DNA of 64,000 nucleotides from an uncultured Gammaproteobacteria bacterium (GCA_963817195.1 CAWFNJ010000002.1:1511-65510), one strand, 5' to 3'; positions 8,152 to 32,499 are shown, numbered from the stretch's first letter. Numbers and translations: made by a program. Notes: a model not told the origin generated them from the sequence alone.

Positions 8152-9085
8152 TTGCCTCCCTTTCCGGATTTCTTCGTCGTCGGCGCGCCGCGGTGCGGCA
8201 CGACGTCGTTCTGCCGCTATCTCGCGCGGAACCCGCAGATCTGCTTCTCGCAGCCCAAGGAGCCGCACTACTTCACGCAGCTCACCCGCGACCCGACCGA
8301 GGCCGAGCTCGCGCGCGATTACCTCGAGCGCTGCTTCGGCCACTACGCGGAGCGCGCACCGCGCGGTCGGCGAAGGATCGGTGTCGTATCTCTACCTTCC
8401 CGCGGCCATCGAACGGATCCGGCGCATCAATCCGGAAGCGCGCTTCATCGCGCTCGTCCGCAACCCGCTGACCATGCTGCCGTCGTATCACCTTCGGATG
8501 CGGTTCCTGCTGCAGGAGGACGAGCCGGATTTCGCTCGTGCGTGGGCGCTCGAGCCGGCACGAGCGCGAGGAGAGAACGTGCCGCGGCACTGCCTCGACC
8601 CTCGTCTCCTCCTGTACAGCAAGGTCGCGCAGCTCGGCGCCCAGGTGGAACGGCTCTTCGCCATGGCCGGCCGCGAGCGCTCGCACGTCGTCGTGTTCGA
8701 CGACCTCAGCGGCGGATCCTCTTCGGGTCTATCGCGGCGCCCTCGATTTCCTCGGCGTCGACTACGACGGCCAGACGCGCTTCGAGTCGAGGTACGAAAG
8801 CCGGATGTACCGGTATCGCTGGCTGCAGCGGATGCTGTTCGTGCCGGCCACGCAAGGGCGGCAAGATGATGGAGACGCTGCAGCAGCGCACGCAGGAAGT
8901 ACAACCCGGACGGCTCGAAGAAACCCGGCCTCATCAAGCGAATCACGAAGTGGAACAAGGTCCCCGCGTCGCCGGCCCCACTGCCGCAGGCGACGAAAGA
9001 CGTCGTGCGCGAAACGCTGCGGCCCGACGTGGAGCTCCTCTCGCGGCTCCTCGACCGCGATCTGACCGGCTGGCTCGCCACCTGA
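8152..9085 (+). CDS. PAPS-dependent sulfotransferase-family protein, frameshifted
   Basis: ORF 8152.. has 'FFVVGAPRCGTTSFCRYL' (5'-PSB loop). ORF 7952..8869 has 'SVSYLYLPAAIERIRRINPEARFIALVRNPLTMLPSYH' (R-x7-S 3'-PB motif). The C-terminus, from manual translation, is '..LLSRLLDRDLTGWLAT*' ending at 9085. Confidence 0.7.
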
Positions 9086-9153
9086 GTCGCCGGCTTGGGG
9101 TCACGGGCGGTCTTTTTCCCGTCCTGCTAAAATTGCAATCCAGCTCCCGAAAA

Positions 9154-9798
9154 ATGCCCATGCCGGACCCCGTTGAAGCGAAGCGGACGGAAGACTCCGT
9201 CCGGCTTTTCCAGAATGACGTTCTGGAGGCGCTGACGCACGTGCATCCCCTCGTACCCCTGCTGTTCTGGGGGCCGGTTGCCGCAGTGCTGCTATGGCGC
9301 AGCGTCGCCGTCCACGGTCTCCCTGCCACCGGGCTTGCCGGGATTGCGGCCCTGGCGCTCTTCATCTGGACGCTGACCGAGTATTGCCTTCATCGCTTCG
9401 TGTTCCACTATCCCGCGCAAAGCCGCGCCGGCAAGTATCTCGTGTTCCTGTTCCACGGCGTGCACCATGCGACGCCGCGGGACAAGTCGCGTCTCGTCAT
9501 GCCGCCCGCGGGCGGCATCCTCCTGTTCATCGTCCTGTACGCGATCTTCAAGCTGCTCGTGCCCGCGCCGTGGGTCGAGCCGTTCATCGCGTTCTTCCTG
9601 ATCGGCTACCTCGCCTACGACTACATCCACTACGCGACGCATCACTTCCCGATGCGCTCGAAGCTCCTGCACTTCCTCAAGGTCTATCACCTGCAGCATC
9701 ACTACGGGGCCAAGGGCGTGCGCTACGGCGTGAGCTCTCCGGCGTGGGATTGGGTGTTCGGCACCTATCCCGCCAATCCGCGCGCCAGTGGCGGCTGA
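9154..9798 (+). CDS. fatty acid hydroxylase-superfamily enzyme, FA2H/Scs7-like (sphingolipid fatty-acid 2-hydroxylase type, no cytochrome b5 domain); apparently intact
   Basis: This is the tail of ORF 8152..9798, from ATG at 9154. It has four His boxes in FA2H-like order: 'HRFVFH', 'HGVHHATPRDKSRLVMPP', 'YDYIHYATHH' and 'HLQHHY', followed by 'GVSSPAWDWVFGT'. TM helices lie between the boxes. Confidence 0.8.
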   Translation: MPMPDPVEAKRTEDSVRLFQNDVLEALTHVHPLVPLLFWGPVAAVLLWRSVAVHGLPATGLAGIAALALFIWTLTEYCLHRFVFHYPAQSRAGKYLVFLFHGVHHATPRDKSRLVMPPAGGILLFIVLYAIFKLLVPAPWVEPFIAFFLIGYLAYDYIHYATHHFPMRSKLLHFLKVYHLQHHYGAKGVRYGVSSPAWDWVFGTYPANPRASGG

Positions 9799-10297
9799 CC
9801 TCCGGCGCGTCGCGCGCCGTCTATGCGTCGCGACGACCCTCGTCGGTTTCGCGCTCCACGTCCCCGCGCACGCCGCAGCACCGGAGCGTTCAGCCGCCCC
9901 AGGACTTCATGGTCTCTGGGTCGACAACCGCGACGCCTCCAAGCACAAGGTCGCGGTGTGGATCGAAGAGTGCGACGGCCTCCTGTGCGGGCGGATCTAC
10001 TGGCTCAAGAAGCCGACGTCGGGCGGCGCGCCGAAGCGCGACCAGAACAACCCCGACGCGACGCTTCGCGACCGCCCGCTGTGCGGTCTCAAGATCATGA
10101 CCGGCTTCAGGCCGGGCGAGGCGCCGAGCTGGTACCGCGGTTTCATCTACAACCCGAACGACGGCCGAACCTTCAACAGCACGATCCACGTGGAGGAAGA
10201 CGGCTCGCTGAAGATTCGCGGATTCGTCGGCGTGTCGCTCTTCGGCAAGACCGTGGAGTGGGTGCGGCCGCGGGAACCCCTGAATCGCTGCAGCTGA
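9788..10297 (+). CDS. DUF2147-like secreted protein
   Basis: ORF 9788..10297 has a signal peptide 'LCVATTLVGFALHVPAHA'. It also has 'GLWVD..VAVWIEECDGLLCGRIYWLKKP' and 'GFIYNPNDGRTFNSTIHVEEDGSLKIRGF', which are typical of DUF2147 as I remember it. Confidence 0.6.
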   Translation: MAADLRRVARRLCVATTLVGFALHVPAHAAAPERSAAPGLHGLWVDNRDASKHKVAVWIEECDGLLCGRIYWLKKPTSGGAPKRDQNNPDATLRDRPLCGLKIMTGFRPGEAPSWYRGFIYNPNDGRTFNSTIHVEEDGSLKIRGFVGVSLFGKTVEWVRPREPLNRCS

Positions 10298-10313
10298 TGG
10301 GCACCAAGCGCCA

Positions 10314-12053
10314 CTAGGCGCGCCGGGCTGTCGCGACGGTCGGCGCCGCCGAGCGCGGATGCGCGTCGGCAGCGACGAGCGTTGCCGTGCCGTCTCCCAT
10401 CCGATAGACGCGATCCGCGACCTCGACCAGCGGAGACTGGTGCGATATCGCCACGATGGTGAGCTCTCCGCGCAGCCCCTCGAGCGTGCGGCAGATCGCG
10501 GCCTCCGTTTCCGGATCGAGCGCGCTCGTCGCCTCGTCGAGGATCAGGAGGCGCGGCCGATGCGCCAACGCGCGCGCGATCGCGACGCGTTGCCGTTGAC
10601 CGCCCGAGAGCTTGCCGCCGCGCTCTCCGACGATCGTATCCAGACCTTCGGGCATCGCCGAGACGACCTCCCAGATGCCCGCTGCGCGCAGCGCGGTCAC
10701 GGCGTCGGCTTCGGTCAGCTCCGGATCGCCCAACGTCACGTTGTTGCGAACGGTGTCGTGCAGGAGCACCGTGTCCTGCGGCACGTAGCCGATCATCCGG
10801 CGCCACGCACGCCAGTCGACCTGCTGCCAGCGGCAGGTCGTCGATCCAGATTTCGCCTTCCTGCGGGCGCAGCAGCGCGGTGACGAGGTCGATGACCGTC
10901 GTCTTGCCGGCGCCGGACGAGCCGACGATCACCGTGATGCCGCCGGCGGGAATCGCGAGCGCCACGTTGCGCAGGATCCAGTGGTCGCGATAGCGAAAGC
11001 CCACGCCTTCGAAGCGGATCTCGCGCGCGAGCGCGGGCGAAACGCCGTCCGGCGGATTCTCGCTCTCGCTCTTCGCTCCGTCGATCGCCGCCCGCATCGA
11101 CCAGTAGGCGCTCTCGCACGTGACCATCTTCTGGTACTCGCGCTGCATCCGGCTCATGTACAGGAGAACGCGCACGAGCAGGAACGCGAGCAGCATCACC
11201 GACGCGAGCGACATCCCGAACTCCACCAGCGCCACGTAGAGCCCGGACGCGATCAGGATCGCGAGCATCGGCTCCTGCAGCGCCCGCAGCGCCTCCTTGC
11301 TGAAGACGTCCTTCTGCAGCGCACGGTTCAACTGCGTCGTGTCGCCTTCGAGCAGCACGTTGGCGAGGTTCTCGCGGGCCATCGCCTTCAACGGCTTGAC
11401 CGATTGCAGGTTGTCGGCGAGGCGCGCGAGCAGCGAGCGCAGGAGCTTGGTCTGCTTCGCCCCGGCGCGACGCGACTTGTGCACCAGCCGGTTCAGCAGG
11501 AAGATGAACACCACGCCGGCGGCGAGCGCCACGAGCGTCGCTCGCCACGACACGAGCAGCGCGATGATCGAATAGACCGTCGCCTGGATGCAAAGCGCGA
11601 GGACGGTCGCGCCGTAGAGATACGATTCGGCGCCGCGCGTCGCCTCGGTGGCGAGGCTGTTGGAGAGCGCCCCGATCGGCTGCCGCAGGTAGTATTCCCA
11701 GCGCGCACCCAGGAGCGATCGAATGAAGTCGAGGCGCAGATCCGTCGCCACGCGCGCGACCGTGTAGCCGACCTGCTTGTTCGCCGCCAGCACGAGCACG
11801 CTCTTCAGGACCATGCCGATGACGACGATCGAGAGGAGCACGCCGACCGTCGGCGTGAGTCCGACCACCGCCAGGACACGCGTCACCGCGGCGCCGAGCC
11901 CCGACGTCGCGCCCCGTCGCCGCCACGCGCGCTCAGGAGCGGCAACAGCGTCGTGAGGCCGACGCCTTCCAGGAGACTCGCGAGCACCAGCGCGCCCAGC
12001 ACCAGCGCGCTTTGCGCGGGATAGGCGCGGCTGAAGGCGAGAAAGAGCTTCAT
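10314..12053 (-). CDS. ABC exporter, fused TMD-NBD half-transporter (MsbA-like lipid/drug exporter), frameshifted
   Basis: Manual start at 12053 gives 'MKLFLAFSRAYPAQSALVLGAL'. ORF 10147..11886 holds the six-TM domain and Walker A 'GSSGAGKTT'. ORF 10314..10796 holds 'LSGGQRQR' and 'LLILDEATSALD'. It lies 28 nt downstream of spt on the same strand. Confidence 0.8.
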
Positions 12054-12081: not shown

Positions 12082-13299
12082 TCAAGCGCCGGTGCCGAGC
12101 TCCGCGGCGACGATGCCCGCCGCCGACCGCAAGTCGGCGAACGCCGCGCTGACGGCGGAGATCTGCTCCTCCGTGTGGGCGGCGCTTACGCTGCAGCGGA
12201 TGAGCGAGACGCCGTTGGGCGTGGCGGGCGGCAGCATCAGGTTGACGTAGACGCCGTGCTGCACGCAGGCTCTTCCAGAACGCGGAGCGCCTCCATCCGG
12301 TCGTTCAGCACCACGGCGATCACCGGGCTCGCCGGCGCGCCCAGCGTGTAGCCCATCGCCGTCAATTCCGCGTGCAGCCGCCGGTAGTTCGCAGCGAGAC
12401 GGGCGCGGAGGTCGCGCCCCGCCGCGAGCTTCACGAGCGCCTGCCGCGTCGAGGCGATCGTCGCGGGCGAAGGCGAGGCGGTGAAGATGTAGGGACGGCT
12501 CGAGTAGCGGACGAGATCGAGCGCCGGGAGGTCGCTTACGCAAAAGCCCCCGGTGCCGCCCAGGCTCTTGCTGAACGTGCCCACGATGAAGTCCGCGTCC
12601 GCGAGCACGCCCACTTCCTCGACGAGCCCGCGGCCGCGCTCGCCCAGCACCCCCACCGAGTGGGCTTCGTCCACGAGCAGGTAGCCGCCGAAGCTCGCGC
12701 TTGACCTCCACGATCTCGGCGAGCGGCGCGCGATCGCCCAGCATGCTGTAGATGCCTTCGACCACGATCAGCGTGTCGGCCGCGCGCGCTCCGAGCCGGC
12801 GCATGCGCTTCGCGAGGTCGTCGACGTTGTTGTGCCGAAACCGGATGACCTCCGCGCCGGCCAGTCGGCAACCGTCGTAGATGCTGGCGTGGCAGTCGGC
12901 ATCGAGCAGCACGACGTCGTTCTGGCCCGTGAGCCCCGCGAGCAGGCCGAGGTTTGCCTGATAGCCCGTCGAGAACACGATCGCGTCGCGCATTTCGTAG
13001 AACGCCGCGAGCTCCCGTTCGAGCCGGCGGTGATTCGAATAGCTGCCGTTCGCCATGCGGGAGCCGGTCGTGCCCGTGCCTTCGGTGTCGAGCGCCTGCT
13101 TCGCCGCCGCGACGCAGTCGGGATCGAAGGTCAAGCCGAGGTAGTTGTTCGTGCCGGCGAGAATGGTCCGCCGGCCGTGAATGATGCCTTCGGTCGGCGA
13201 CAGGATGCGCTCGATCTCGACGCCGAATGGATCGATGCCGATCGTCTCGAGCTCGCGCCGCGCCGACGCCAGGCCCTGGAACTTGTCGAAGAGTCCCAT
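12082..13299 (-). CDS. spt: serine palmitoyltransferase-like alpha-oxoamine synthase (PLP-dependent), frameshifted
   Basis: ORF 12082..13515 has 'ILAGTNNYLGLTFDPDCVAAAKQAL..GSRMANGSY..VFSTGYQANLG..LDADCHASIYDG..IRFRHNNVDDL'. ORF 12237..12674 has 'VDEAHSVGV' and 'GTFSKSLGGTGGF' (PLP lysine). The C-terminus is 'YVNLMLPPATPNGVSLIRCSVSAAHTEEQI'. From memory this is collinear with Sphingomonas SPT. Its ATG overlaps the ACP stop. Confidence 0.8.
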   Translation of the reverse strand: MGLFDKFQGLASARRELETIGIDPFGVEIERILSPTEGIIHGRRTILAGTNNYLGLTFDPDCVAAAKQALDTEGTGTTGSRMANGSYSNHRRLERELAAFYEMRDAIVFSTGYQANLGLLAGLTGQNDVVLLDADCHASIYDGCRLAGAEVIRFRHNNVDDLAKRMRRLGARAADTLIVVEGIYSMLGDRAPLAEIVEVKRELRRLPARGRSPLGGGAGRARPRARRGSGRARGRGLHRGHVQQEPGRHRGLLRKRPPGARSRPLLEPSLHLHRLAFARDDRLDAAGAREARGGARPPRPSRCELPAAARGIDGDGLHAGRAGEPGDRRGAERPDGGAPRSGRACVQHGVYVNLMLPPATPNGVSLIRCSVSAAHTEEQISAVSAAFADLRSAAGIVAAELGTGA

Positions 13300-13571
13300 C
13301 AGCTTGCCCGGACGAGCTGCTCGATCTGCTTCGCGAGGTCGCCGACGGTCTTCACGTCCGGAAGGATGCTGACCGGAATGGAGATGTCGAACCGATCCTC
13401 GATCTGCAGCATGAGGTTCATGACCTGGAGCGAGTCGAGGCCCAGGTCGCCCAGCAAATCCGTGTCTTCGCCGACCTCGACGCGCCCTTGCGTCAGCGTC
13501 GTGAGCTCGGCGCAAATCTCCGCCACGATCTGCGGATAGTCGACGGTAACGTTTCCTGTCATGGCGTTCAT
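13299..13571 (-). CDS. acyl carrier protein (dedicated, sphingolipid-cluster type)
   Basis: This is an intact 90-aa ORF with 'DTDLLGDLGLDSLQVMNLMLQIEDRF' (DSL phosphopantetheine site). It has ATGA overlaps with both neighbours, at 13299-13301 and 13568-13571. Confidence 0.8.
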   Translation of the reverse strand: MNAMTGNVTVDYPQIVAEICAELTTLTQGRVEVGEDTDLLGDLGLDSLQVMNLMLQIEDRFDISIPVSILPDVKTVGDLAKQIEQLVRAS

Positions 13572-14515
13572 GGCTTTCGCGTGGCGTAGGCTCGGGCGAG
13601 GCCCTCTTCGAGCCCGACGGCCGCCCGCCAGCCCATTGTGCTGGCGTAGTCGTGACTATCGCACAACCAGTCCGGGTGGGTGATCTCGCGCACCTTGCCG
13701 GGGGTCAGCATCGGGTCGTAACCCAGAAGCCGCGCGGCCGCGAGATTGGCCGCGGCCGCGAGCTTCAACAGCGCCACGGGAATCGGCAGCCGATGGACCG
13801 TCGCGCCGCCGCGCAGCACGCGTCCCGCGACGGCGAGCACGGTGTCCCAATCGTAGCCTCCGGCGTGCCCGTCATCGAGCTCGAAGCTGCGGCCGTAGCC
13901 CGCGTCGGCCGCGAGCCAGCGCAGCACCGCGGTCGCGAGATCGTCGACGTACAGCAGCGAAAAGCGCCCGGTGCTTCCCGCGGGCAGCGGCGCCAGCCCT
14001 CGCGCCACCCAGCGAAAAAGCGGCCGCAGCTCCTTCTCGCCGGGCCCATAGACGGCAGGCGGGCGCAGCACCGTCCAGCGCAACTGGTCCGGGGCGGCTT
14101 CCACCGCAACCTCGCCGTGGCGCTTGCTGGCGGCGTACGCCGACAGTTGGGGCATCCGCGCCGCCAGCGAGGAGATGAACAGGAATCGTGGTGCCGGCGT
14201 AAGGCTCGCGGCGACTCGCACGAGCCGGCGAGTGCCTTCGGCGTTGATCCGCTCGAACCCGGCGCGGCCGGCGCCGCGCACGGTCCCGGCGCAGTGAACG
14301 ATCGCCTCGGCGCCGGTCACGAGCGCACGCAACGATGGCTCGTCGGCAAGATCGCCTTCGACCCATTCGACGCCGCGCTGCGGCACCGGCGTGCGCCCCG
14401 ACCGGCGGCGATAGAGCGCGCGCACGCTCCACCCGCCCTCGACGAGCCACGGCAGCAGCGCCGAGCCGATGAATCCGGTCGCTCCGGTGAGCGCGACTTG
14501 GGGTTGGACGGTCAA
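13568..14515 (-). CDS. NAD-dependent epimerase/dehydratase-family reductase (candidate ceramide/3-keto reductase, CerR-like)
   Basis: This is the C-terminal ~315 aa of ORF 13568..16057. It has 'LTGATGFIGSALLPWL' (Rossmann) and 'SAYAASKRHGE' (YxxxK). TTG start inferred at 14515. It sits between the acyl-AMP ligase and the ACP. Confidence 0.65.
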   Translation of the reverse strand: MTVQPQVALTGATGFIGSALLPWLVEGGWSVRALYRRRSGRTPVPQRGVEWVEGDLADEPSLRALVTGAEAIVHCAGTVRGAGRAGFERINAEGTRRLVRVAASLTPAPRFLFISSLAARMPQLSAYAASKRHGEVAVEAAPDQLRWTVLRPPAVYGPGEKELRPLFRWVARGLAPLPAGSTGRFSLLYVDDLATAVLRWLAADAGYGRSFELDDGHAGGYDWDTVLAVAGRVLRGGATVHRLPIPVALLKLAAAANLAAARLLGYDPMLTPGKVREITHPDWLCDSHDYASTMGWRAAVGLEEGLARAYATRKP

Positions 14516-14607
14516 GCAGACGACGCCGGGATCGAGACGTGAAAGAAACGGGAATGCCGCGTCGCGGCCGCCGGCCGCGCGGGCTACCGGCGCTTCGAGC
14601 CTTAAAC

Positions 14608-16379
14608 CTACGACGCGGCCGAGGCGACCGCCGACTGGCTCGCGTCCCCGGCGCCGCTGCGCGCGGCCTTGCGCTCCTGCGCACGCCGCTCGAGGTAGTC
14701 CTCGCGCGCGGCGGCCCGCGACAGCTTGCCCGACGACGTGCGCGGCAGCGTGTGCCGCGGCACGAGCTCGATCACGCAGGAAATGCCGAGCTCTTCGTGA
14801 ATTTCGCGATGGAGCCGCTGCGTGAGCTTGCGGCCTTCCGCCGGATCGTTGATGTTCGACTGCACGACGACCACGGCGACTTCCTCGTCTTCGGAACCGA
14901 GCACGAAGAACGCCGACGCGTCCATCGACCGCAGTTCCGGCTGCCGCTCGGCGATGTGCTCGATGTCCTGCGGCCAGATGTTGCGGCCGTTGATGATGAT
15001 CATGTCCTTGTGGCGGCCGGTGACGACGATGCTGCCCTCGACCAGGTAGCCGATGTCGCCCGTGTCGAGCCAGCCGTCGTGCGACAGCGACTGGCGCGTC
15101 TGCTCGGGCTGCGCGAAATACCCGGACATGACGCTCGGTCCGCGCACTTTTATGCGCCCGACATGAAGATCGGGAAGGGGCCTTCCCTGGTCGTCGCGCA
15201 CGGCGACCTCGTGTCCCGGCAGCGGCCCGCCGCAGCGGACGAAGCCGTTGACCCGGCCCGTGTCGCTGACCGGCGGGAATCACGCGCAAATGCTCCGCCA
15301 GGTGATCGGCGTCGATCCAGTCGACGACCACGCCGCTCTTGAGCGGCGAGAAACTGATCGCGAGCGAGCTTTCGGCCATGCCGTAGCAGGGGACGAACGC
15401 GCGGGGATCGAATCCGGCCGGCGCGAGCAGCTTGGCGAAGCGGTCCGGCAGCTCGGCGCGAATGGGCTCGGCGCCGATGCCGGCGATGCGCCACGCCGCG
15501 AGGTCGTAGCCCGCGACGTCTTCGGGACGAATCCGGCGCGCGCAAAGCTCGTAGCCGAACGGCGGGCTGAACGAGATCGTCGCCTTCGTGTTGGTCATCA
15601 ACTCGAGCCAGCGGCGCGGCCGCATCGCGAAATCGCGCGTGTCGAGATAGTCGATCGAGCGCTGTGTCGCCATCGGCGCGAGCATGCAGCCGACGAGACC
15701 CATGTCGTGGTAGAACGGCAGCCACGAGACGCAGCGGTCGTCGGGCTTGATGTCGAGACCGTGATTGACCACGCCGGCGAGATTGCTCAAGGACCGCGTG
15801 CTGGGTAATGACGACGCCGCGCGGAAAGCTCGTGCTGCCCGAGGTGTATTGCAGGTATGCGGTTTCGGTCGGGCCGCTCGGGTGGAGCTCGACGTCTTGC
15901 TCCGGCAGCTCGTCGAAGTCGGCGGGCGTGCCCGTGAAAGCGAGGTCCATGCCCTCGGCTGCCTCGCGCAGGAAACGCAGGAACTGGGTCGACGCCGTGG
16001 CGACCGATGCCCCGCAACCCACGAGCAGCCCGCGCAGCCGGGCAACGTAGGCGGCATGGCCGCCCAGGTTCGCCGAGGCCGGCAGCGCCACCGGAACGAG
16101 ACCGGCGTACTGGCACGCGAAGAAGAAGCGCAGGAAATCCGGGCTGGTCTCCGCGATCACCGCGACGCGCGCGCCGCGCTCGAGCTCGAGCGACAGGAGC
16201 CGGCGCGCGAGCTTCTGCGCCTCGATGCGCAGCGTGCGATAGGGAAGCACCGCGGCGAGCTTGCCGCTGCCCGCGTAGAAGTTCGCGCCCGTGTCTCCCT
16301 GCGCGGCGTAATCCAGCGCGTCGGCCAGGCTCGCGAAATCGGCACGCCGCAGCGGCAGCGAATTCACGGTCGGCGTCAT
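14608..16379 (-). CDS. fatty acyl-AMP ligase / acyl-ACP synthetase-type adenylate-forming enzyme, frameshifted
   Basis: ORF 15150..16463 starts at 'MTPTVNSLPLRRADF' and has 'YLQYTSGSTSFPRGVVITQ'. The middle part lies in ORF 13568..16057. ORF 14608..15201 has 'DGWLDTGDIGYL' and 'LPRTSSGKLSR'. Confidence 0.75.
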
Positions 16380-16899
16380 CCGCGGCGCGGATCCAAAATC
16401 TGGCGTTCGATTCAGTTTGATTCCCCTCGAGGGCATCTCTCTACGTGCCTTGACCCAACCCAAGGCGTCGATGCGCTCGGCTCAAAAGAAAGACCTCGGA
16501 ATCCAGCGCGGGGCCGTCCCATATGATTGAATCAGTTTCTTGGGACTGTTTTATGGTTGTCCTGCCGCTCAAACCGTAAGTTTAGCAGGTAATGACTCCA
16601 AAGTAGACCGTAACTGTAGCCAGCGCGTCAAGAAACTCGGGCCCGCCGACCGCTTCCTTGTAGGATAATGTTGCGATATCGACCACTGGCGGGCGGCGCG
16701 CCCGGGGGATTGGCCCCCGCGTTTGGGTTTTCCCGGAGCCTCATGCGGCAAGGCGCCACGCCATTCGGGCCTCGGCAGGCCGTTCCGGCCCCGCCGCGGC
16801 CCGCTGGAGCCACCCTGCTGGCGGGTCGGCGGCTTTCGGGTGCCACTCAGTTGCCACCCCGGCACCGCATCCGACCGACAAACCTCTTCCACCCCGGAT
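16380..16899. promoter_or_regulatory. 520-bp divergent intergenic/promoter region between the ceramide operon and the GNAT gene
   Basis: There is no credible ORF. It holds the lowest GC in the window (16501-16620 = 58/120 GC, 48%, by hand count). Short repeated motifs are 'gattcagtttgattc' at ~16399 and 'gattgaatcagttt' at ~16526. A 'gataat' sits at 16664-16669. Confidence 0.4.
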
Positions 16900-18056
16900 T
16901 TGACTCAGGATCTCAGCGCCCATCCGCGTTACCGCCGTCGACAGCGATGCGGCGCTGGATCGGTTCCTGAGCGTTCCGGCGTGGGTTTTCGCATCGGACC
17001 CGGCGTGGGTCGCGCCGCTGCGCCTGGAGCGGCGCATGCACCTGTCGCCCAAGCACAATCCCTACTTTCAGCATGCCCGGTGGCAGGCATGGATCGCGTG
17101 GCGCGGGAGCAAGCCCGTCGGGCGGCATCAGCGCGCAGATCGATGCGCTGCACCTCGAGCGCTACGCCGACGCCACCGGCTTCTTCGGCATGCTGGATGC
17201 GGAGGATCGGCAGGACGCTTTCGCGGCGCTGCTTGGGACCGCGGAGCGCTGGCTCCGCGACAACGGGATGCGGCGCGTCCGCGGCCCGTTCGGCCTGTCG
17301 ATCAACGAGGAAGCCGGACTGCTGATCGAGGGCTTCGACACCCCGCCCGTCTTCATGATGGGACACGCCCGGCCGTACTACTCGACGCGCATCGAGGCGC
17401 AAGGCTATCGCAAGGCGGTCGACACGCTCGCCTATACGATCCACGCGGATTTCCAGCCGTCGCCCGTGATGGCGAAGCTCGTCGCCGCGGCGCAGAAGCG
17501 CGTGCATGTCCGGCCGCTCGATCGGAAGCGCTTCGACGCCGAGATCGCGCTCCTGCGCGACATCTTCAACGATGCCTGGGCGGAGAACTGGGGATTCCTC
17601 CCGTTCACCGACGCCGAATTCACGGAGCTCGGCCGGAACCTGCGCTTTCTCGTCGATCCCGGGCTGATCCGGATCGCCGAGGTCGACGGCGAGCCAGCCG
17701 CGTTCATGGTGGTCATCCCCAACCTCAACGAGGCGATCCGCGGGCTCGACGGTCGGCTGCTGCCGTTCGGCTGGGCGAAGCTCCTGTGGCGGCTCAAGGT
17801 TCGCCACCCGAAGCACCGCCCGCGTCCCGCTGATGGGCGTGCGGCGGAAATTTCAGCGCACGCGCCTCGGTCCCGCGCTCGCCTTCCTCGTGATCGCCGC
17901 CGCGCAGCCCAGGACCCTGGAGCTCGGCGTCAAGGAAGTCGAGCTGTCGTGGATCCTGGAGAACAACGAAGGCATGCGCAGCATCATCGAGTCGATCAGG
18001 CGGCTCACGCGTACAAGCGCTATCGCATCTACGAACGAGAGCTCGATGCAGATTGA
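16900..18056 (+). CDS. GNAT-fold acyltransferase, candidate bacterial ceramide synthase (bCerS-like), frameshifted
   Basis: Manual N-terminus is 'IRVTAVDSDAALDRFLSVPAWVFASDPAWVAPLRLERRMHLSPKHNPYFQHARWQAWIAW'. ORF 17073..18056 has 'RVRGPFGLSINEEAGLLIEGF..PFTDAEFTELG..IRIAEVDGEPAAFMVVIPNLNEA'. ORF 17833.. has 'VELSWILENNEGMRSIIESI', and the gene ends 'YKRYRIYERELDAD'. It is divergent from the spt operon. Confidence 0.5.
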
Positions 18057-18132: not shown

Positions 18133-18918
18133 ATGTCCTTTGCCGCCGTCGTGCTCGCCGCCGATCGCGGCCGGAACGATCCGGTGGCGCTCGCCGCCGG
18201 CGTCGCCGCCAAGTGCCTGACGCCGATCGCCGGCAGTCCGATGGTCTCGCGCGTCGTGCGCGCGCTCGAGCGTAGCGGACGCGTCGGACGCATCCTGCTC
18301 TGCGGCCCCGCCGAGGAGACGGTCGAAGGATCGCTCGACTTGCGCGAGATGACGACGGACGGCGACATCGGCTGGATCGCGCCGCAGGCAACCCCCTGCA
18401 CGAGCGCCGCGGCGGCACTGGCCACGCTCCCGAGCGACGCGCCGGTGCTCGTCACCACGGGCGATCACGCGCTGCTCGAGGCCGAGATGGTTCGCCTCTT
18501 CCTGGACGAGGCTCTCGCCCGCGGCGGCGACGTCGCCGTGGCACTCGCGCCGTACGACCTCGTCCGCGAAGCCTATCCGCAGACGCGGCGCACCGTGCTC
18601 GAGTTCAGCGACGGCCGCTTCTGCGGCTGCAACCTGTTCGCCTTTCTCACGCCGCGCGGCCGCGAAATGGTGAAGGTCTGGAAACAGGTCGAGGACGATC
18701 GCAAGAAGCCCATTCGCGTCATCGGCCTCGTCGGCTGGGGCGCGATGGCGCGCTATGCGCTCGGAATGCTGAGCCTCGCGGACGGCGTCCGGCGGATATC
18801 GAAGCAGACGGGGATCGCGGCGAGCGTGGTCACCCTGCCCTTCGCCGAGGCGGCGATCGACGTCGATACCGTCGCGGACCTGGAGCTCGTGCGCGCGATC
18901 GCGGCTAGGCGGCAGTGA
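18133..18918 (+). CDS. NTP-transferase-fold protein (MobA/CofC-like nucleotidyltransferase); apparently intact
   Basis: This is the tail of ORF 17833..18918, starting 'MSFAAVVLAADRGRNDPVALAAGVAAKCLTPIAGSPMVSRVVRAL'. It also has 'VLVTTGDHALLEAEM' and 'AAIDVDTVADLE'. The fold-level call comes from the N-terminal glycine-poor NTase pattern only. Confidence 0.45.
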   Translation: MSFAAVVLAADRGRNDPVALAAGVAAKCLTPIAGSPMVSRVVRALERSGRVGRILLCGPAEETVEGSLDLREMTTDGDIGWIAPQATPCTSAAAALATLPSDAPVLVTTGDHALLEAEMVRLFLDEALARGGDVAVALAPYDLVREAYPQTRRTVLEFSDGRFCGCNLFAFLTPRGREMVKVWKQVEDDRKKPIRVIGLVGWGAMARYALGMLSLADGVRRISKQTGIAASVVTLPFAEAAIDVDTVADLELVRAIAARRQ

Positions 18919-19640
18919 CCCAGGCGGCGCCGGGCGTCGACGCGCGTTCGAGATCGGCCGGGCTGTCCACTTCGGTCCATCCCGTCGCCGGAATCTCCTG
19001 CGTGTAGACCGACCCGCTCTTCGCGAGAGCGTCGATCAGCGACAGGTACCACTGCGACAGCGCCGCCGGCGTGCGCAGCGCCCGGTCCATCGCGTCGCGG
19101 AAGAGGCGCGCGCCCTCGCCGCGGAAGGTCATCATCCCGATCGATTCCGCGTTCACCTCGTCGCGCGGGAGCTTCTTGCCCACCTGCAGCAGCCGATCGC
19201 CGTCGCGGATCACTTTCATGTCGTCGTCGTCGTATTGATCCTTGCGGCTGACGGCGAGCGTGATCGGGTGCTCCGGGCGCCGCGAGGAGCCGCTCGAGCA
19301 CCGCGGCGTCGAACAGCGTGTCGCCGTTCAGGAGCAGGAACTCGCGCTCCATTTCGCCGCGCGCGACCCAGCAGCTGACGAGGTTGTCGGTGATCGTGTA
19401 GAACGGGTTGTAGAGGGTGCGGATGCGCCGCGGGCCGTAGCGTTCGGCGAGCCCCGCTTCGACGAGCTCGGCGCCGAAGCCGACCACGACCGTGATGTCG
19501 TCGACGCCGCAGCGCAAGAGCGCGTCGATCTGCCGGCCGATGAGCGGGCGCCCCAGCACCGGAAGCATGCATTTCGGCGCGCGCTCGGTGAGCGGCAGCA
19601 ATCGCTTGCCTTGACCGGCGCTCAGGATAATCGCTTTCAC
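18905..19640 (-). CDS. sugar/alcohol-phosphate nucleotidyl(cytidylyl)transferase, LicC/IPCT-like; one frameshift
   Basis: GTG start at 19640. ORF 18753..19694 has 'KAIILSAGQGKRLLPLTERAPKCMLPVLGRPLI..DITVVVGF..LLLNGDTLFD'. ORF 18905..19219 has 'ESIGMMTFRGEG..QWYLSLID..TGWTEVDSPADLE'. Its 3' end overlaps the convergent gene by 14 bp. Confidence 0.65.
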
Positions 19641-21310: not shown

Positions 21311-21316
21311 CTCCCG

Positions 21317-30039: not shown

Positions 30040-30260
30040 GAAGTCGGCGTCCGAGCGCCGAACGACGAGCGCGACGCGAAAGCGCGCTCGTCCGCGTCGA
30101 TCGTGAGCTCAACGGGTCGCATGCGGTTAGTATATGATGCCGCGCTTCGGCGCCTCTTGAACCGCGCCCCTCCGCCTTCGTCGCGCAGCGAAGCGCGACC
30201 TCCAGCGGCGCCTCCGCCGCTCGAACCCCGCAGGCCCGAAAGATCGACATCGACGACAAC

Positions 30261-31474
30261 ATGGTTGCAGTGGTCGTGGGCGACAGCCCCATCCGCCTGT
30301 GGGGCCTTACGCCCGCGGAACGGATCGAACGCCAGTTGCGAGCCGAACGCATCCCCGTGTCCCGCGACGGTCTCGCCGCCCCGCCGGCGACGGGAACGCT
30401 CCTGATGCTGCGCGGCGACTACCTCTACGATGCCCGCGTGATCCGCGGGCTCGCCAAAGTCCGCAACGCGATCCTCGAAGTGGAGGTCGACGGGCGCTCG
30501 CTGCCGGTGGCGGCGCATGTCGGCGTGAACGACGCACCGGTCGCCCGCGCGTCGCTCGACGGCGCACCGGATCGACGCGACGGCGTCGGGCATCGCCAAG
30601 GTCGGTCTCGCCGACGTCGCGCAGGGCTACGAAGCGGGGTTGAAGAAGCTCGATCGGCCCTTCGTTCTTCCGGTCACCGCGGAGCGGCGGCCCGCGCTCG
30701 AGCAGCTCACGTTCTCCGGCGCGTACAAGGGCGTCACCGATCTCGTCACCAAATGGCTGTGGCCCGTTCCGGCACAGTGGGTCACGCGCTGGTGCGTGCG
30801 GATGGGAATGACTGCCAACCAGGTGACGGCCGCGAGCCTCGTGCTCGTCATCGTCGCGGGCGTGCTGTTCGCGCGCGGCGAGTTCGCCTGGGGCCTTGTC
30901 GCCGGCTGGATCATGACGTTTCTCGACACCGTCGACGGCAAGCTCGCGCGCGTGACGATCACGTCGACCCAGTTCGGCAACGTGTTCGATCACGGGATCG
31001 ATCTCATCCACCCTCCGCTCTGGTACTTCGCCTGGGGCGTGGGACTCGCGCTCGATCCGCCGGCGATCGGCGGAGTCCCGCTCGCCTGGATCTACTGGGC
31101 AATCCTCGCCGGCTACGTCGGCGGGCGTCTTTGCGAAGGCGCGTTCCAGCTCTTCATCGCGCGCTTCTCGATCTTCACGTGGCGGCCGTTCGACTCGTGG
31201 TTCCGGCTGGTCGCGGCGCGACGCAATCCGAACATGATCATGCTCACCGTGAGCCTGGCGCTCGGGCGCCCGGATCTGGGCCTGCTCGCCGTTGCAGTAT
31301 GGACGGTCGCGTCGATGGTGCTGCTGCTGGCGCGGCTCCTGCTGGCCGCGCTCGAGAAGCACAACCGGGTGACGATCCGCTCGTGGCTCTCGGAGATCGG
31401 CGAGCACGATGGACGAGCATGCGCTGACGGCACGGGTGTTCGCCCACGCCGCTCCCACCGCGCGCAAGGCGTAA
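30261..31474 (+). CDS. CDP-alcohol phosphatidyltransferase-family membrane enzyme with ~125-aa soluble N-terminal extension, frameshifted
   Basis: ORF 30261.. gives the N-terminus 'MVAVVVGDSPIRLWGLTPAERIERQL'. ORF 30640.. has 'FLDTVDGKLARVTITSTQFGNVFDHGIDLIHP', the full D-x2-D-G-x2-A-R-x8-G-x3-D-x3-D motif (from nt 30925), plus multiple TM helices. Stop inferred at 31472-31474 after a terminal frame change. Confidence 0.75.
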
Positions 31475-31487
31475 CGGCGGCGGCGAC

Positions 31488-32499
31488 ATGCCGCCGGCAG
31501 ACGTGTCGACGCCCGATTCCGCAACGCGCCTCGCGCGCCTCTCGATCGGCATCCTGCGCAACCCGGGAAGCGGCGCGAACCTCCGCGCGCGCGAAAGCGA
31601 TGGAGCGACGCGCTCGCCGCGCATCGCGAACCTTCCCTGCCTCGAGGTGCACGATCCCGCTGAGCGTCGAGGCCGCGTTGCGCGACCTCGCGGGTCGCGG
31701 CGTCGACACGATCGCCGTCAGTGGCGGCGACGGCACCGTCAGCGCCGTCCTCAATACGATCTTCGCGCGCAACCCGTTCCCGCGGCTGCCGCTTCTCGCG
31801 GTGCTGCGCGGCGGCACGGCCAACATGACCGCGCGCGACGTCGGCCTCTCCGGTCGCCAGCATCGCGCGCTCTCGTCGCTGATCGAGGCGGCCTCGCGCG
31901 GCGGCGAAGGGCTGACGGTCACCAAACGCCCGGTCATTCGCATCGATCCCGGCGGCGGACGCGACACGATTCACGGGATGTATTTCGCGGCTGCGGCGAT
32001 CTCCCAGGGCATCGACTACTGCAAGCGCAACGTGCACAAGATGGGCCTGCGCGGCGAAATCGGTCCCGCCGTCACGATGGCGCGCTTCGTCGTCGCGATG
32101 GCGCGAGGCGAGCGCGAGATCGTCGCCCCCGTGCCGATGACCGTCGCCGTCGACGATGCGCCCGCCGCGACCTTCGATTGCGAGGTCGTCCACGTGACCA
32201 CGCTCGAGCAGCTGGTGCTGGGACTGCGGCCGTACTGGGGCGCGGAAGCGGCGCCGTTGCACTACGCGAGCGTGCGCGCCCATCCGCGGCACTGGCTGCG
32301 CGCGCTGCCCGGCCTCCTGCGCGGGCGGCCCAATCGCTTCGTCACGGAAGCGAACGGATACGAAAGCCGCAATGCGCATCGCCTGTCGATCGGGCTCGAC
32401 ACGCCGTTCTTCGTCGACGGCGAGCTCTTTTCCCCGACACCCGGCACGCCACTGTTACTCACCGATGGCGGGACGGCGGACTTCGTGACTCTGCGATGA
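31488..32499 (+). CDS. lipid kinase of the DAG-kinase catalytic-domain family (sphingosine/ceramide kinase-like), one frameshift
   Basis: ORF 31488.. has 'LSIGILRNPGSGANL'. The frame of ORF 30640..32499 has 'GVDTIAVSGGDGTVSAVLN' (GGDGT) and 'LAVLRGGTANMTARD'. It ends 'DGGTADFVTLR*'. It starts 13 nt after the preceding gene. Confidence 0.75.

What the first reader, a model, noticed from the sequence alone, without database searches (positions are those of the whole stretch)
12082..18056. Complete bacterial ceramide-synthesis core: acyl-AMP ligase, epimerase-type reductase, ACP and SPT operon, with a divergent GNAT acyltransferase
Seen in the sequence:
- Four minus-strand genes are tightly packed. 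ATGA overlaps occur at 13299 and 13569, and a 92-nt gap follows the ligase.
- The SPT-like protein has the alpha-oxoamine synthase hallmarks ('VDEAHSVG', 'GTFSKSLG'). From memory it is collinear with Sphingomonas SPT rather than BioF.
- The ACP has the DSL site, the reductase has GxxGxxG and YxxxK, and the ligase has the 'YTSGSTSxPRGV' motif.
- A GNAT-like gene ('NPYFQHA..', 'LSWILENNEGM') is divergently transcribed.

Established knowledge: this is the same five-gene set reported as necessary for ceramide synthesis in Caulobacter crescentus. That set comprises spt, a dedicated ACP, an acyl-ACP synthetase, an NAD-dependent epimerase-like reductase and a GNAT-type ceramide synthase.

Inference: the flanking genome carries hemX/hemY and a MuxABC-OpmB-type pump, which suggests a beta/gamma-type backbone. 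The locus may therefore have been acquired horizontally, and the organism probably makes sphingolipids.
Basis: partly seen in the sequence, partly recalled or inferred. Interest (0 to 1): 0.7.

Follow-up and report, generated by a model that had tools for sequence, protein, structure and literature searches.

The report
Betaproteobacterial ceramide (sphingolipid) synthesis gene cluster
This stretch of an uncultured betaproteobacterium carries the known five-gene set for making ceramide, laid out as in E. coli BL21 and many other bacteria and next to genes for a phosphorylated head group, so it is a sound but ordinary example of a known pathway, read from very error-prone sequence.

Summary
Window 12082-18056 encodes, on the minus strand, serine palmitoyltransferase (SPT), a dedicated ACP, an SDR/epimerase-type reductase and a fatty acyl-AMP ligase. 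A tandem-GNAT acyltransferase is transcribed divergently.

- **Identity:** SPT passes NCBIfam's serine palmitoyltransferase equivalog (632.7 bits, cut-off 500) and fails the BioF and KBL models. All five proteins are full-length homologues (44-57% identity) of the E. coli BL21(DE3) yghO-aasR-epi-acpR-spt cluster, which has the same layout. The literature equates that cluster with Caulobacter CC_1154 and CC_1162-1165.
- **How common:** 38 of 65 judgeable loci from other species show the identical layout.
- **Corrections:** nine frameshifts break SPT, the ligase and the GNAT gene. The whole window has about 160 frame switches, including in hemC, hemD and parC, so this is sequencing noise, not decay. 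The 13299 junction is TGATG, not ATGA.
- **Horizontal transfer:** not supported. Composition is typical, the closest relatives are all betaproteobacterial, and synteny is conserved among them.
- **Extent:** the system is larger than reported. Counterparts by domain type of all six Caulobacter phosphosphingolipid head-group genes are present (18133-19640 and 29003-33357), separated by an MdtABC pump operon. An ABC exporter and a fatty-acid hydroxylase also flank the core.

Verdict: a new member of a known kind.

The parts
12082..13299 (-). spt: serine palmitoyltransferase (PLP-dependent alpha-oxoamine synthase), 404 aa after correcting 3 frameshifts (about 12690, 12281, 12265)
   Evidence: NCBIfam NF047599 scores 632.7 bits (cut-off 500), while bioF scores 331.6 (cut-off 426) and KBL 317.9 (cut-off 460). 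PDB matches: S. wittichii SPT 444 bits, S. paucimobilis SPT 417, KBL 246, BioF 174-182. Identity is 57% to E. coli BL21 SPT and 87% to L003.
13299..13571 (-). acpR: dedicated acyl carrier protein (90 aa, DSL phosphopantetheine site), intact
   Evidence: Pfam PP-binding 52.4 bits. It scores below every housekeeping AcpP cut-off (45.4 against 71). It is 49% identical to E. coli AcpR ECD_02853. Its stop overlaps the spt start by 1 nt.
13568..14515 (-). cerR/epi: NAD(P)-dependent extended-SDR reductase (315 aa, GATGFIG, YAASK), intact; TTG start
   Evidence: Pfam Epimerase 98.2 bits. It is 44% identical over its full length to E. coli ECD_02852. It holds the conserved position between aasR and acpR in 38 loci.
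14608..16436 (-). aasR: fatty acyl-AMP ligase / acyl-ACP synthetase (about 608 aa after correcting 2 frameshifts at about 15791 and 15268)
   Evidence: NCBIfam NF006624 fatty acyl-AMP ligase 792.1 bits (cut-off 600). It is 48% identical to E. coli AasR ECD_02851 and 86% to L003.
16437..16899 (.). Divergent intergenic region with a conserved block at 16581-16633. On the minus strand the block reads TCTTGACG..N18..TCTACT, which is promoter-like.
   Evidence: Alignment of the intergenic regions of the window and 12 relatives; unique match in the window. No Rfam family was found. The simple promoter scan found nothing.
16900..18056 (+). bCerS/aca (YghO family): tandem-GNAT N-acyltransferase, about 384 aa after correcting 4 frameshifts (about 16912, 17126, 17811, 17999); TTG start
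   Evidence: It is 49% identical to E. coli YghO over 374 aa (E 1e-136), 80% to L003 and 88% to P0001. The AlphaFold model of the family has pLDDT 84.5, and Foldseek's top hits are tandem GNATs. Pfam Acetyltransf_1 is only weak (22.6 bits).
10314..12053 (-). MsbA/HepA-like ABC exporter (half-transporter), 28 nt downstream of spt on the same strand; candidate lipid flippase; 2 frameshifts
   Evidence: Pfam ABC_membrane plus ABC_tran. NCBIfam HepA and MsbA models score below cut-off. The same position directly downstream of spt is found in 14 loci, including distant gammaproteobacteria.
8152..10297 (+). Accessory block: sulfotransferase (8152 to about 9084, frameshifted), fatty-acid hydroxylase (about 9154-9798) and the DUF2147 protein (9788-10297)
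   Evidence: Pfam Sulfotransfer_3, FA_hydroxylase and DUF2147. The same order is found in L003/L004, L005, L007-L010, L017 and L047. DUF2147 is also linked to the cluster in many Methylophilaceae loci, and FA_hydroxylase in L012 and L071.
18133..18918 (+). MobA/CofC-like nucleotidyltransferase (NTP_transf_3) directly after the GNAT gene; counterpart by domain type of Caulobacter CC_1153
   Evidence: Pfam NTP_transf_3 50.6 bits. It directly follows the GNAT gene in 31 of 80 loci. CC_1153 is described in PMC11324152.
18905..19640 (-). NTP_transferase (sugar/alcohol-phosphate nucleotidyltransferase), 1 frameshift; counterpart by domain type of Caulobacter CC_1152
   Evidence: Pfam NTP_transferase and NTP_transf_3. 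It accompanies the GNAT-NTP_transf_3 pair in 17 loci. CC_1152 is described in PMC11324152.
29003..30075 (-). Metallophosphoesterase; counterpart by domain type of CC_1158
   Evidence: Pfam Metallophos 48.2 bits. Homologues (45-54% identity) sit next to the GNAT-NTP genes in 17 distant loci.
30240..33357 (+). Head-group operon: CDP-alcohol phosphatidyltransferase (30240-31471), DAGK_cat lipid kinase with a GGDG motif (31472-32493) and a Tam41-like cytidylyltransferase (32494-33357). By domain type and order these are counterparts of CC_1159, CC_1160 (ceramide kinase CpgB) and CC_1161.
   Evidence: Pfam CDP-OH_P_transf 33 bits, DAGK_cat 48.8 bits, Tam41_Mmp37 19.1 bits (weak). Homologues lie beside the ceramide genes in L056-L058, L060, L062-L065, L067, L072, L074, L077-L080, L082 and L083. 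Caulobacter functions come from PMC11324152 and PMC10331486.

Best explanation
This is a working ceramide (dihydroceramide) biosynthesis cluster of the beta/gammaproteobacterial type, read from a very noisy assembly of an uncultured betaproteobacterium.

**Proposed pathway**
1. The acyl-AMP ligase (AasR) activates a free fatty acid and loads it onto the dedicated ACP (AcpR).
2. SPT condenses acyl-AcpR with L-serine to give 3-oxosphinganine.
3. The tandem-GNAT enzyme (bCerS/YghO family) adds the N-acyl chain, and the SDR reductase (CerR/Epi) reduces the 3-keto group. The order of these two steps is disputed in the literature.
4. The MsbA-like ABC exporter encoded 28 nt downstream of spt probably flips the lipid across the inner membrane.
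5. A neighbouring fatty-acid hydroxylase probably hydroxylates the lipid.
6. Six further genes probably convert ceramide, via ceramide-1-phosphate and nucleotide-activated intermediates, into an anionic phosphosphingolipid of the Caulobacter CPG/CPG2 kind. These are two nucleotidyltransferases beside the GNAT gene, and the set of phosphoesterase, CDP-alcohol transferase, lipid kinase and Tam41-like enzyme at 29-33 kb.

**Shown:** gene identities, family membership by sequence or fold, and synteny.
**Inferred:** every enzymatic step, the exporter role, the head-group chemistry, and that the frameshifts are sequencing errors.
For: **SPT identity**
- It scores above the curated serine palmitoyltransferase equivalog cut-off (632.7 against 500) and below the BioF, KBL and ALAS cut-offs.
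- Its best solved relatives are the Sphingomonas SPTs (444 and 417 bits, aligned end to end). KBL scores 246 and BioF 174-182. The His, Asp-x-x-His and PLP-lysine motifs are identical.

**Other core genes**
- The ligase passes the fatty acyl-AMP ligase model (792 against 600).
- The ACP fails all housekeeping AcpP cut-offs, so it is a specialised ACP.
- All five proteins are full-length homologues of E. coli BL21 ECD_02850-02854 in the identical divergent layout: 49, 48, 44, 49 and 57% identity.
- The E. coli SPT, AcpR and AasR were tested biochemically. All five E. coli genes are listed as orthologues of CC_1154 and CC_1162-1165; for example YghO against CC_1154 is 44% identical, E 1e-107 (PMC9386255).
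- The GNAT family model folds as a tandem GNAT.

**Synteny**
- 38 of 65 judgeable loci from other species have the same layout, and 46 of 65 have all five genes within 10 kb.
- The head-group genes lie next to the ceramide genes in 17 or more distant loci. They match the domain types and order of CC_1158-1161 and CC_1152/1153.

**Frameshifts are noise**
- About 160 same-strand frame switches occur in 64 kb, hitting hemC, hemD, parC, ubiA and mdtB/C as well.
- There are no nonsense codons in the corrected frames, and identity to intact orthologues is 76-87% for SPT, ACP, ligase and GNAT and 63% for the reductase.
- The closest MAG also has fragmented RND genes.
Against: - No lipid or enzyme data exist for this organism.
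- No Caulobacter sequence could be retrieved, so homology to the genetically defined bCerS and CerR is transitive, through E. coli YghO/ECD_02852 and published tables.
- E. coli YghO and ECD_02852 have not themselves been shown to be a ceramide synthase or reductase.
- Sequence evidence for the GNAT domain is weak (Pfam 22.6 bits, no NCBIfam model, no PDB sequence match).
- The Tam41-like assignment is below Pfam's cut-off (19.1 against 24), and no head-group gene reaches an NCBIfam equivalog.
- In this window the head-group genes are about 9 kb from the core, behind a drug-pump operon.
- As written, the sequence cannot encode intact SPT, ligase or GNAT.
Confidence: 0.85

Rival explanations
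1. The cluster is a decaying pseudogene remnant. The nine frameshifts are real, and the organism no longer makes sphingolipids.
For: SPT, the ligase and the GNAT gene are each broken by 2-4 frameshifts in the sequence as given.
Against: - Frame switches occur at about 2.5 per kb across the whole window, including essential genes (hemC, hemD, parC, ubiA). The core region is no worse, at about 1.5 per kb.
- No nonsense codons appear.
- The corrected proteins keep 76-87% identity to intact orthologues (reductase 63%) and all catalytic motifs.
- Most events are single-base insertions, typical of read error.
Confidence: 0.04
2. The locus was recently acquired by horizontal transfer, as a genomic island from an alphaproteobacterium or another donor.
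For: - Sphingolipid genes are patchily distributed among proteobacteria; several loci have the GNAT gene without the other four nearby.
- hemC-hemD (38835 to about 37040) and hemX-hemY (5244-3087) lie on the same strand but are separated by a 32-kb block that contains all the sphingolipid genes.
Against: - GC is 0.684 against 0.696 for the window, and GC3 is 0.886 against 0.908, within the spread of the window's genes.
- No integrase, transposase, tRNA or flanking repeat was seen.
- The SPT fits the 'BetaP' model, not the alpha model.
- GNAT identity falls roughly with taxonomic distance: beta MAGs 73-80%, other betaproteobacteria about 70%, Xanthomonadales 61-68%, Halomonadaceae 55-61%, Pseudomonas 53%, enterics 49-51%. 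The literature gives about 41-44% between beta/gamma and Caulobacter versions.
- About nine related MAGs share a 12-gene synteny.
- The window also shows at least one chimeric junction, so long-range order is unreliable.
Confidence: 0.1
3. The cluster makes a related but different lipid, not ceramide. Candidates are a sulfonolipid or capnine-like compound, a sulfated long-chain base, or an N-acyl amino-alcohol signal.
For: - A sulfotransferase is conserved upstream in the closest relatives.
- Alpha-oxoamine synthases include cysteate acyltransferases and CqsA-type autoinducer synthases (one search lists them).
Against: - The SPT scores 417-444 bits to true SPTs, against 171 to cysteate-C-fatty acyltransferase and 140 to CqsA. 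It also passes the curated SPT equivalog.
- The sulfotransferase is found only in the nearest relatives, whereas the five core genes and the phospho-head-group genes are conserved across phyla.
Confidence: 0.05

Closest known systems
E. coli B / BL21(DE3) yghO-aasR-epi-acpR-spt cluster (ECD_02850-02854; NC_012971 2989282-2994885)
   Same: - It has the identical five genes in the identical layout: the GNAT gene divergent from ligase-reductase-ACP-SPT, with a 1-nt ACP/SPT overlap.
- Full-length identity is 44-57%.
- E. coli SPT, AcpR and AasR were shown to make 3-oxosphinganine through acyl-AcpR (PMC9386255).
   Different: - E. coli has a 4-nt ligase/reductase overlap instead of a 92-nt gap.
- Downstream of spt, E. 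coli has LptF/LptG paralogues and other envelope genes, not the MsbA-like ABC exporter.
- E. coli has no nucleotidyltransferase, kinase or CDP-alcohol transferase genes nearby.
Caulobacter crescentus sphingolipid region CC_1152-CC_1168 (ceramide genes CC_1154 and CC_1162-1165; CPG/CPG2 genes CC_1152, 1153 and 1158-1161)
   Same: - It has the same five ceramide functions in the same spt-acpR-epi-aasR order.
- GNAT-NTase-NTase adjacency matches CC_1154-1153-1152.
- The order phosphoesterase, CDP-alcohol transferase, lipid kinase, CDP-DAG-synthase-like enzyme matches CC_1158-1161.
   Different: - In Caulobacter bCerS lies about 8 genes from spt, with LptF2/G2 in between. Here it is directly divergent.
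- Here an MdtABC-OMF pump operon splits the system.
- The Caulobacter flippase candidate and LptC2/F2/G2 have no detected counterparts here. This window instead has an MsbA-like exporter, a sulfotransferase, a fatty-acid hydroxylase and DUF2147.
- No direct sequence comparison could be made.
Nitrosomonas eutropha C91 Neut_0458-0461 plus Neut_1100 (the betaproteobacterial example in the literature)
   Same: It belongs to the same class and has the same aasR-epi-acpR-spt operon (PMC9386255).
   Different: In N. eutropha the acyltransferase (Neut_1100) is far from the operon. Here it is adjacent and divergent.
Sphingomonas SPT (S. wittichii 2x8u, S. paucimobilis 2jg2)
   Same: These are the best solved relatives, collinear over residues 3-397, with identical PLP-lysine and His/Asp motifs.
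   Different: - The window protein fits NCBIfam's beta model (632.7 bits, cut-off 500) and not the alpha model (492.5 bits, cut-off 670).
- The 'ARPPATP' arginine of the Sphingomonas enzymes is Leu here and in E. coli.

Membership tests
Serine palmitoyltransferase (SPT clade of alpha-oxoamine synthases) | Scores above a curated SPT equivalog threshold and below those of BioF, KBL and ALAS | tested here: met
   NF047599 scores 632.7 (cut-off 500). bioF scores 331.6 (cut-off 426), KBL 317.9 (cut-off 460) and ALAS 207.7 (cut-off 339). The query was the frame-corrected protein.
Serine palmitoyltransferase (SPT clade of alpha-oxoamine synthases) | PLP-binding lysine and His/Asp catalytic motifs; collinear with characterised SPTs | tested here: met
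   The alignment to 2x8u and 2w8j covers residues 3-397. DADxHASIYDG, LVDEAHS and GTFSKS are conserved.
Serine palmitoyltransferase (SPT clade of alpha-oxoamine synthases) | Placement inside the SPT clade in a full phylogeny with BioF, KBL and HemA outgroups | not tested
   Only score ranking was done: SPT 417-444 bits, KBL 246, BioF 174-182, ALAS 167. No tree was built.
Serine palmitoyltransferase (SPT clade of alpha-oxoamine synthases) | Condenses L-serine with an acyl thioester to give 3-oxosphinganine | not testable with these tools
   This needs an enzyme assay. The closest tested relative is E. coli BL21 SPT at 57% identity.
AcpR (sphingolipid-dedicated ACP) | Small PP-binding protein with a DSL serine, encoded directly upstream of spt, distinct from housekeeping AcpP | tested here: met
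   PP-binding 52.4 bits. All AcpP models score below cut-off. There is a 1-nt overlap with spt. It is 49% identical to AcpR of E. coli.
AasR (sphingolipid-dedicated acyl-ACP synthetase, FAAL type) | Adenylate-forming enzyme of the fatty acyl-AMP ligase subfamily, homologous to ECD_02851/CC_1165 and clustered with acpR-spt | tested here: met
   NF006624 scores 792.1 (cut-off 600). It is 48% identical to ECD_02851 over 552 aa. The YTSGSTSFPRGV motif is present.
CerR / Epi (bacterial ceramide or ketosphinganine reductase) | Extended SDR with GxxGxxG and YxxxK, homologous to ECD_02852/CC_1164, located between aasR and acpR | tested here: met
   Epimerase 98.2 bits. It is 44% identical to ECD_02852 over 304 aa. 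The position is conserved in 38 loci. Homology to Caulobacter CC_1164 rests only on the published 34% identity between ECD_02852 and CC_1164.
bCerS / Aca (bacterial ceramide synthase, YghO family) | Homology to the genetically defined Caulobacter enzyme CC_1154 / CCNA_01212 | tested here: inconclusive
   No Caulobacter sequence was obtainable, so direct comparison was impossible. The link is indirect: the window protein is 49% identical to YghO (E 1e-136), and the published YghO-CC_1154 comparison gives 44% identity, E 1e-107, 98% coverage.
bCerS / Aca (bacterial ceramide synthase, YghO family) | GNAT-superfamily acyl-CoA N-acyltransferase fold | tested here: met
   The model of P0001 (88% identical to the window protein) has pLDDT 84.5. 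Foldseek's top hits are tandem GNATs (5kf1, 2wpw, 7q3a, MshD 1ozp), E 1e-12 to 1e-14. Pfam is only weak.
bCerS / Aca (bacterial ceramide synthase, YghO family) | N-acylates the long-chain base | not testable with these tools
   This needs an enzyme assay or a knockout.
Caulobacter-type phosphosphingolipid (CPG/CPG2) head-group set | Six genes: lipid (ceramide) kinase, CDP-DAG-synthase-like enzyme, CDP-alcohol transferase, phosphoesterase and two nucleotidyltransferases, all linked to the ceramide genes | tested here: inconclusive
   All six domain types are present, in matching order. They lie next to the ceramide genes in many other genomes. However, there was no sequence comparison with CC_1152/1153/1158-1161, no NCBIfam equivalog, and the Tam41 hit is below cut-off.

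The most novel reading that the evidence does not exclude
This uncultured soil or freshwater betaproteobacterial lineage may make a phosphosphingolipid not yet described: a Caulobacter-like ceramide phospho-head-group lipid that is also hydroxylated and possibly sulfated, exported by its own MsbA-like ABC transporter rather than an Lpt-like system. The sulfotransferase, FA-hydroxylase, DUF2147 and ABC block next to spt is conserved in about nine related MAGs. In several unrelated genomes a HIT-domain gene is also linked to the cluster.
Probability: 0.15. Interest if true: 0.5.

Novelty: new member of a known kind. Interest (0 to 1): 0.25.

Why it matters
- It adds an uncultured betaproteobacterial lineage to the organisms predicted to make ceramide and probably anionic phosphosphingolipids.
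- The survey done here shows that the compact divergent five-gene layout is the common arrangement across beta-, gamma- and deltaproteobacteria and Nitrospirota. A 2022 comparison of seven genomes found all five genes clustered only in Caulobacter and E. coli BL21.
- The Caulobacter-type head-group genes travel with the ceramide genes in many phyla. This supports the view that phosphorylated sphingolipids are a widespread bacterial outer-membrane component.
- None of this changes the current understanding of the pathway.
- The practical lesson is about data quality. The window has roughly 2.5 indels per kb and at least one chimeric junction, so gene integrity and long-range order cannot be taken at face value.

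Tried and rejected
- **Caulobacter sequences.** The single genome-contig scan returned the 80 best hits, none alphaproteobacterial. The Nat Chem Biol paper (Stankeviciute 2022) is not held. A full-library representative search gave 150 unnamed hits, which I did not follow up because it would be costly with a low chance of success.
- **Source contig.** An exact look-up of the window's ACP found nothing on record.
- **RNA elements.** Rfam and tRNA scans of the window were empty.
- **Promoters and terminators.** The scan of the locus gave nothing above chance.
- **Island boundaries.** The repeat search near hemX and hemD gave only GC-rich chance matches.
- **PDB match for the GNAT.** The sequence search found nothing, so a fold search was used instead.
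- **Curated models for the head-group and accessory proteins.** NCBIfam has none above cut-off.
- **Stop-to-stop ORFs with a GC3 filter.** This was useless because of the frameshifts. I replaced it with a codon-usage Viterbi segmentation.
- **Rejected readings.** Locus-specific pseudogenisation, recent HGT from an alphaproteobacterium, and BioF/KBL or sulfonolipid synthase identity for the AOS were all considered and rejected.

Full report
**1. What is in the sequence**

ORF listing and three-frame translation show four co-oriented minus-strand genes and one divergent plus-strand gene at 12082-18056.

| Gene | Coordinates | Strand |
|---|---|---|
| Alpha-oxoamine synthase (SPT) | 12082-13299 | - |
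| 90-aa ACP | 13299-13571 | - |
| Extended-SDR 'epimerase' | 13568-14515 | - |
| Adenylate-forming ligase | 14608-16436 | - |
| ~384-aa GNAT-like protein | 16900-18056 | + |

The reductase/ACP junction is a true ATGA overlap. The ACP/SPT junction is TGATG, a 1-nt overlap, not ATGA. The 92-nt gap after the ligase stop is real if the reductase starts at TTG 14515.

**2. The sequence is badly damaged, everywhere**

None of SPT, the ligase or the GNAT gene is a single open frame.
- A frameshift-aware protein-to-DNA alignment against intact orthologues from a related MAG (L003) places 3, 2 and 4 frameshifts in them. There are none in the ACP or the reductase. Most events are single inserted bases, not confined to homopolymers, and no in-frame stop codon appears.
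- A codon-usage Viterbi segmentation of the whole window gives about 160 same-strand frame switches in 64 kb.
- Housekeeping genes are affected too: hemC, hemD, ubiA, a parC fragment and mdtB/mdtC.
- The corrected proteins remain close to intact orthologues in L003: SPT 87%, ligase 86%, GNAT 80%, ACP 76%, reductase 63%.
- L003 itself has fragmented RND genes.

I therefore read the frameshifts as assembly or read error, not gene decay. All protein analyses below use frame-corrected translations.

**3. Identity of the five genes**

*SPT*
- NCBIfam places it in the serine palmitoyltransferase equivalog NF047599 ('SerpalmtaseBetaP'): 632.7 bits, cut-off 500.
- It is below cut-off for the alpha SPT model (492.5, cut-off 670), bioF (331.6, cut-off 426), KBL (317.9, cut-off 460) and ALAS.
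- Against solved structures, the best matches are S. wittichii and S. paucimobilis SPT (444 and 417 bits, collinear over residues 3-397). KBL scores 246, BioF 174-182, cysteate acyltransferase 171, ALAS 167 and CqsA 140. The His, DEAH and FSK(PLP-lysine) motifs are conserved.

*Other genes*
- The ligase passes the fatty acyl-AMP ligase model (792, cut-off 600).
- The ACP has a PP-binding domain but fails all AcpP cut-offs.
- The reductase is a generic extended SDR.
- The GNAT gene has only a weak Pfam hit (22.6 bits), no NCBIfam model and no PDB sequence match.
- The GNAT family is large: more than 8000 close homologues in one search, and 1166 clusters at 50% identity with E ≤ 1e-30.
- An AlphaFold model of an 88%-identical family member (pLDDT 84.5) is a tandem GNAT. 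It resembles glucosamine N-acetyltransferase, the clavulanate-pathway tandem GNAT and mycothiol synthase.

**4. Link to the characterised systems**

Padilla-Gómez et al. 2022 (PMC9386255) describe the same five genes in E. coli BL21(DE3): yghO/ECD_02850 plus ECD_02851-02854. I fetched that region. Its layout is identical: yghO divergent from ligase-reductase-ACP-spt, with a 1-nt ACP/spt overlap.

| Window protein | E. coli partner | Identity |
|---|---|---|
| GNAT | YghO | 49% |
| Ligase | AasR | 48% |
| Reductase | Epi | 44% |
| ACP | AcpR | 49% |
| SPT | SPT | 57% |

These are essentially full-length matches for the four enzymes; the ACP match covers 65 of 90 residues.

The paper's Table S2 gives the E. 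coli-Caulobacter orthology:
- YghO-CC_1154: 44% identity, E 1e-107
- SPT: 53%
- AcpR: 41%
- Epi: 34%
- AasR: 42%

The paper also shows experimentally that E. coli SPT makes 3-oxosphinganine, preferring acyl-AcpR, and that AasR loads its cognate AcpR.

I could not obtain Caulobacter sequences. The link to the genetically defined bCerS and CerR is therefore transitive. E. coli YghO and ECD_02852 have not themselves been assayed.

**5. Organism, and how common the layout is**

A scan of one genome per species with a GNAT alignment returned 80 loci. GNAT identity to the window falls roughly with taxonomic distance:

| Group | GNAT identity |
|---|---|
| 'Uncultured beta proteobacterium' MAGs (mostly MFD bins) | 73-80% |
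| Methylotenera/Methylophilaceae, Gallionellaceae, Nitrotoga, Rhodocyclaceae | ~63-70% |
| Xanthomonadales | 61-68% |
| Halomonadaceae | 55-61% |
| Pseudomonas | 53% |
| Pantoea | 51% |

Loci from delta-type lineages and Nitrospirota were also returned.

tblastn of the cluster proteins against these loci gave these counts:
- 38 of 65 judgeable loci have exactly the window's divergent five-gene layout.
- 46 of 65 have all five genes within 10 kb.

The 2022 statement that the five genes cluster only in Caulobacter and E. coli BL21 reflected a seven-genome sample. Later work already notes that spt, bCerS and cerR are often clustered (PMC11334938). The window is therefore a typical member of a known kind.

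**6. Horizontal transfer**

The backbone is betaproteobacterial. That does not imply transfer, for these reasons:
- The cluster is native to many beta- and gammaproteobacteria.
- The SPT fits the beta model.
- GC is 0.684 against 0.696, and GC3 is 0.886 against 0.908, so composition is unremarkable.
- No mobility genes, tRNAs or boundary repeats were found.
- About nine related MAGs share a 12-gene synteny.

The one hint in favour is gene order. hemC-hemD (38835 to about 37040) and hemX-hemY (5244-3087) lie on one strand, separated by a 32-kb block that holds all the sphingolipid genes. However, the window has at least one chimeric junction (section 8). I put recent HGT at about 0.1.

**7. The system is larger than reported**

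*Genes next to the core*
- An MsbA/HepA-like ABC exporter begins 28 nt downstream of spt (10314-12053). The same position is occupied in 14 loci, some of them distant.
- Upstream on the other strand lie a sulfotransferase, a fatty-acid hydroxylase and a DUF2147 protein (8152-10297).
- After the GNAT gene come an NTP_transf_3 gene (18133-18918) and a convergent NTP_transferase gene (18905-19640). The first pairing recurs in 31 loci, and both together in 17.

*Genes beyond the MdtABC-OMF operon (19980-29002)*
- Metallophosphoesterase (29003-30075, minus strand)
- CDP-alcohol phosphatidyltransferase (30240-31471)
- DAGK_cat lipid kinase with a GGDG motif (31472-32493)
- Tam41-like protein (32494-33357; weak hit)

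In 17 or more distant loci these four genes sit directly beside the GNAT-NTase genes. They therefore belong to the same conserved super-cluster. The pump operon is an interruption in this lineage.

*Match to Caulobacter (PMC11324152 and PMC10331486)*

| Window gene | Caulobacter counterpart by domain type |
|---|---|
| Metallophosphoesterase | CC_1158 (phosphoesterase) |
| CDP-alcohol transferase | CC_1159 (CDP-alcohol transferase domain) |
| DAGK_cat lipid kinase | CC_1160 (ceramide kinase CpgB) |
| Tam41-like protein | CC_1161 (CDP-DAG-synthase-like) |
| NTP_transf_3 | CC_1153 (nucleotidyltransferase) |
| NTP_transferase | CC_1152 (nucleotidyltransferase) |

Domain types and order match those of the six Caulobacter genes needed to turn ceramide into ceramide phosphoglycerate lipids. 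The match rests on domain type and synteny only. NCBIfam has no equivalog for any of them.

**8. Other points**
- A D-erythronate dehydrogenase gene ends at model position 303 of 321. It abuts a ParC fragment that starts at model position 273 of 735, at 39865. This is a chimeric or deleted junction.
- A HIT-domain gene (35608-36123) has homologues next to the GNAT gene in six distant loci.
- A conserved non-coding block (16581-16633) lies about 150-200 nt upstream of the ligase start.

**9. Verdict**

The five-gene ceramide reading is well supported. The HGT inference is not. The finding is a new member of a known kind, in an uncultured betaproteobacterium, with a probably complete phosphosphingolipid pathway. 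Interest is low to moderate.

Noticed in passing
window 1-64000: The whole window carries about 160 same-strand reading-frame switches, roughly 2.5 per kb. Essential genes (hemC, hemD, ubiA, parC) are hit as well. This looks like an unpolished long-read or low-coverage assembly, and most events in the core genes are single-base insertions.
   Followed up: yes
window 39855-39870: There is an abrupt junction here. A D-erythronate dehydrogenase gene (38862-39864) stops at model position 303 of 321. A ParC (topoisomerase IV subunit A) fragment follows immediately, starting at model position 273 of 735. This is probably a misassembly or a deletion.
   Followed up: partly
window 3087-5244 and 37040-38835: hemX-hemY and hemC-hemD lie on the same strand but 32 kb apart. 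The intervening block (5245-37040) holds every sphingolipid-related gene, the MdtABC-OMF pump, an S9 peptidase, a 2-hydroxyacid dehydrogenase and an EamA transporter. Positions 5245-5971 show no coding signal. No repeats, tRNA or integrase mark the boundaries.
   Followed up: partly
window 29003-33357: A second lipid gene group lies here: a metallophosphoesterase, a CDP-alcohol phosphatidyltransferase, a DAGK_cat lipid kinase (GGDG) and a Tam41-like protein. In many distant genomes these genes sit directly next to the ceramide genes. They mirror Caulobacter CC_1158-1161, the ceramide phosphoglycerate pathway.
   Followed up: yes
window 35608-36123: This HIT-domain protein (HVHFHVIP motif, weak Pfam hit) has homologues at 46-55% identity immediately next to the GNAT/bCerS gene in L073, L076, L078, L079, L082 and L083. 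It may be another accessory gene of the sphingolipid cluster.
   Followed up: partly
window 8152-12053: A sulfotransferase, a fatty-acid hydroxylase, a DUF2147 protein and an MsbA-like ABC exporter flank spt. The full block is conserved in about nine related MAGs. DUF2147 is also linked to spt clusters in many Methylophilaceae genomes, and the ABC exporter in some gammaproteobacteria.
   Followed up: partly
window 16581-16633: A 53-nt non-coding block about 150-200 nt upstream of the ligase start is conserved in the close relatives. On the minus strand it reads TCTTGACG..N18..TCTACT..CCTGCTAAA, which looks like a promoter or operator for the aasR-cerR-acpR-spt-ABC operon.
   Followed up: partly
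L003/L004 (CAVOHM010000001.1, 894893-916092): The closest reference MAG also shows sequence damage. Its reductase gene call is truncated (286 aa, starting at VRALYR) and its RND permease genes are split into many small ORFs. This is consistent with the same kind of sequencing error in this group of MAGs.
   Followed up: no
window 60465-62517 and 62876-63720: A large secreted-type protein with RTX-like glycine-rich calcium-binding repeats and parallel beta-helix-like repeats lies on the minus strand. A second sulfotransferase gene follows it. Both were read from the translations only.
   Followed up: no
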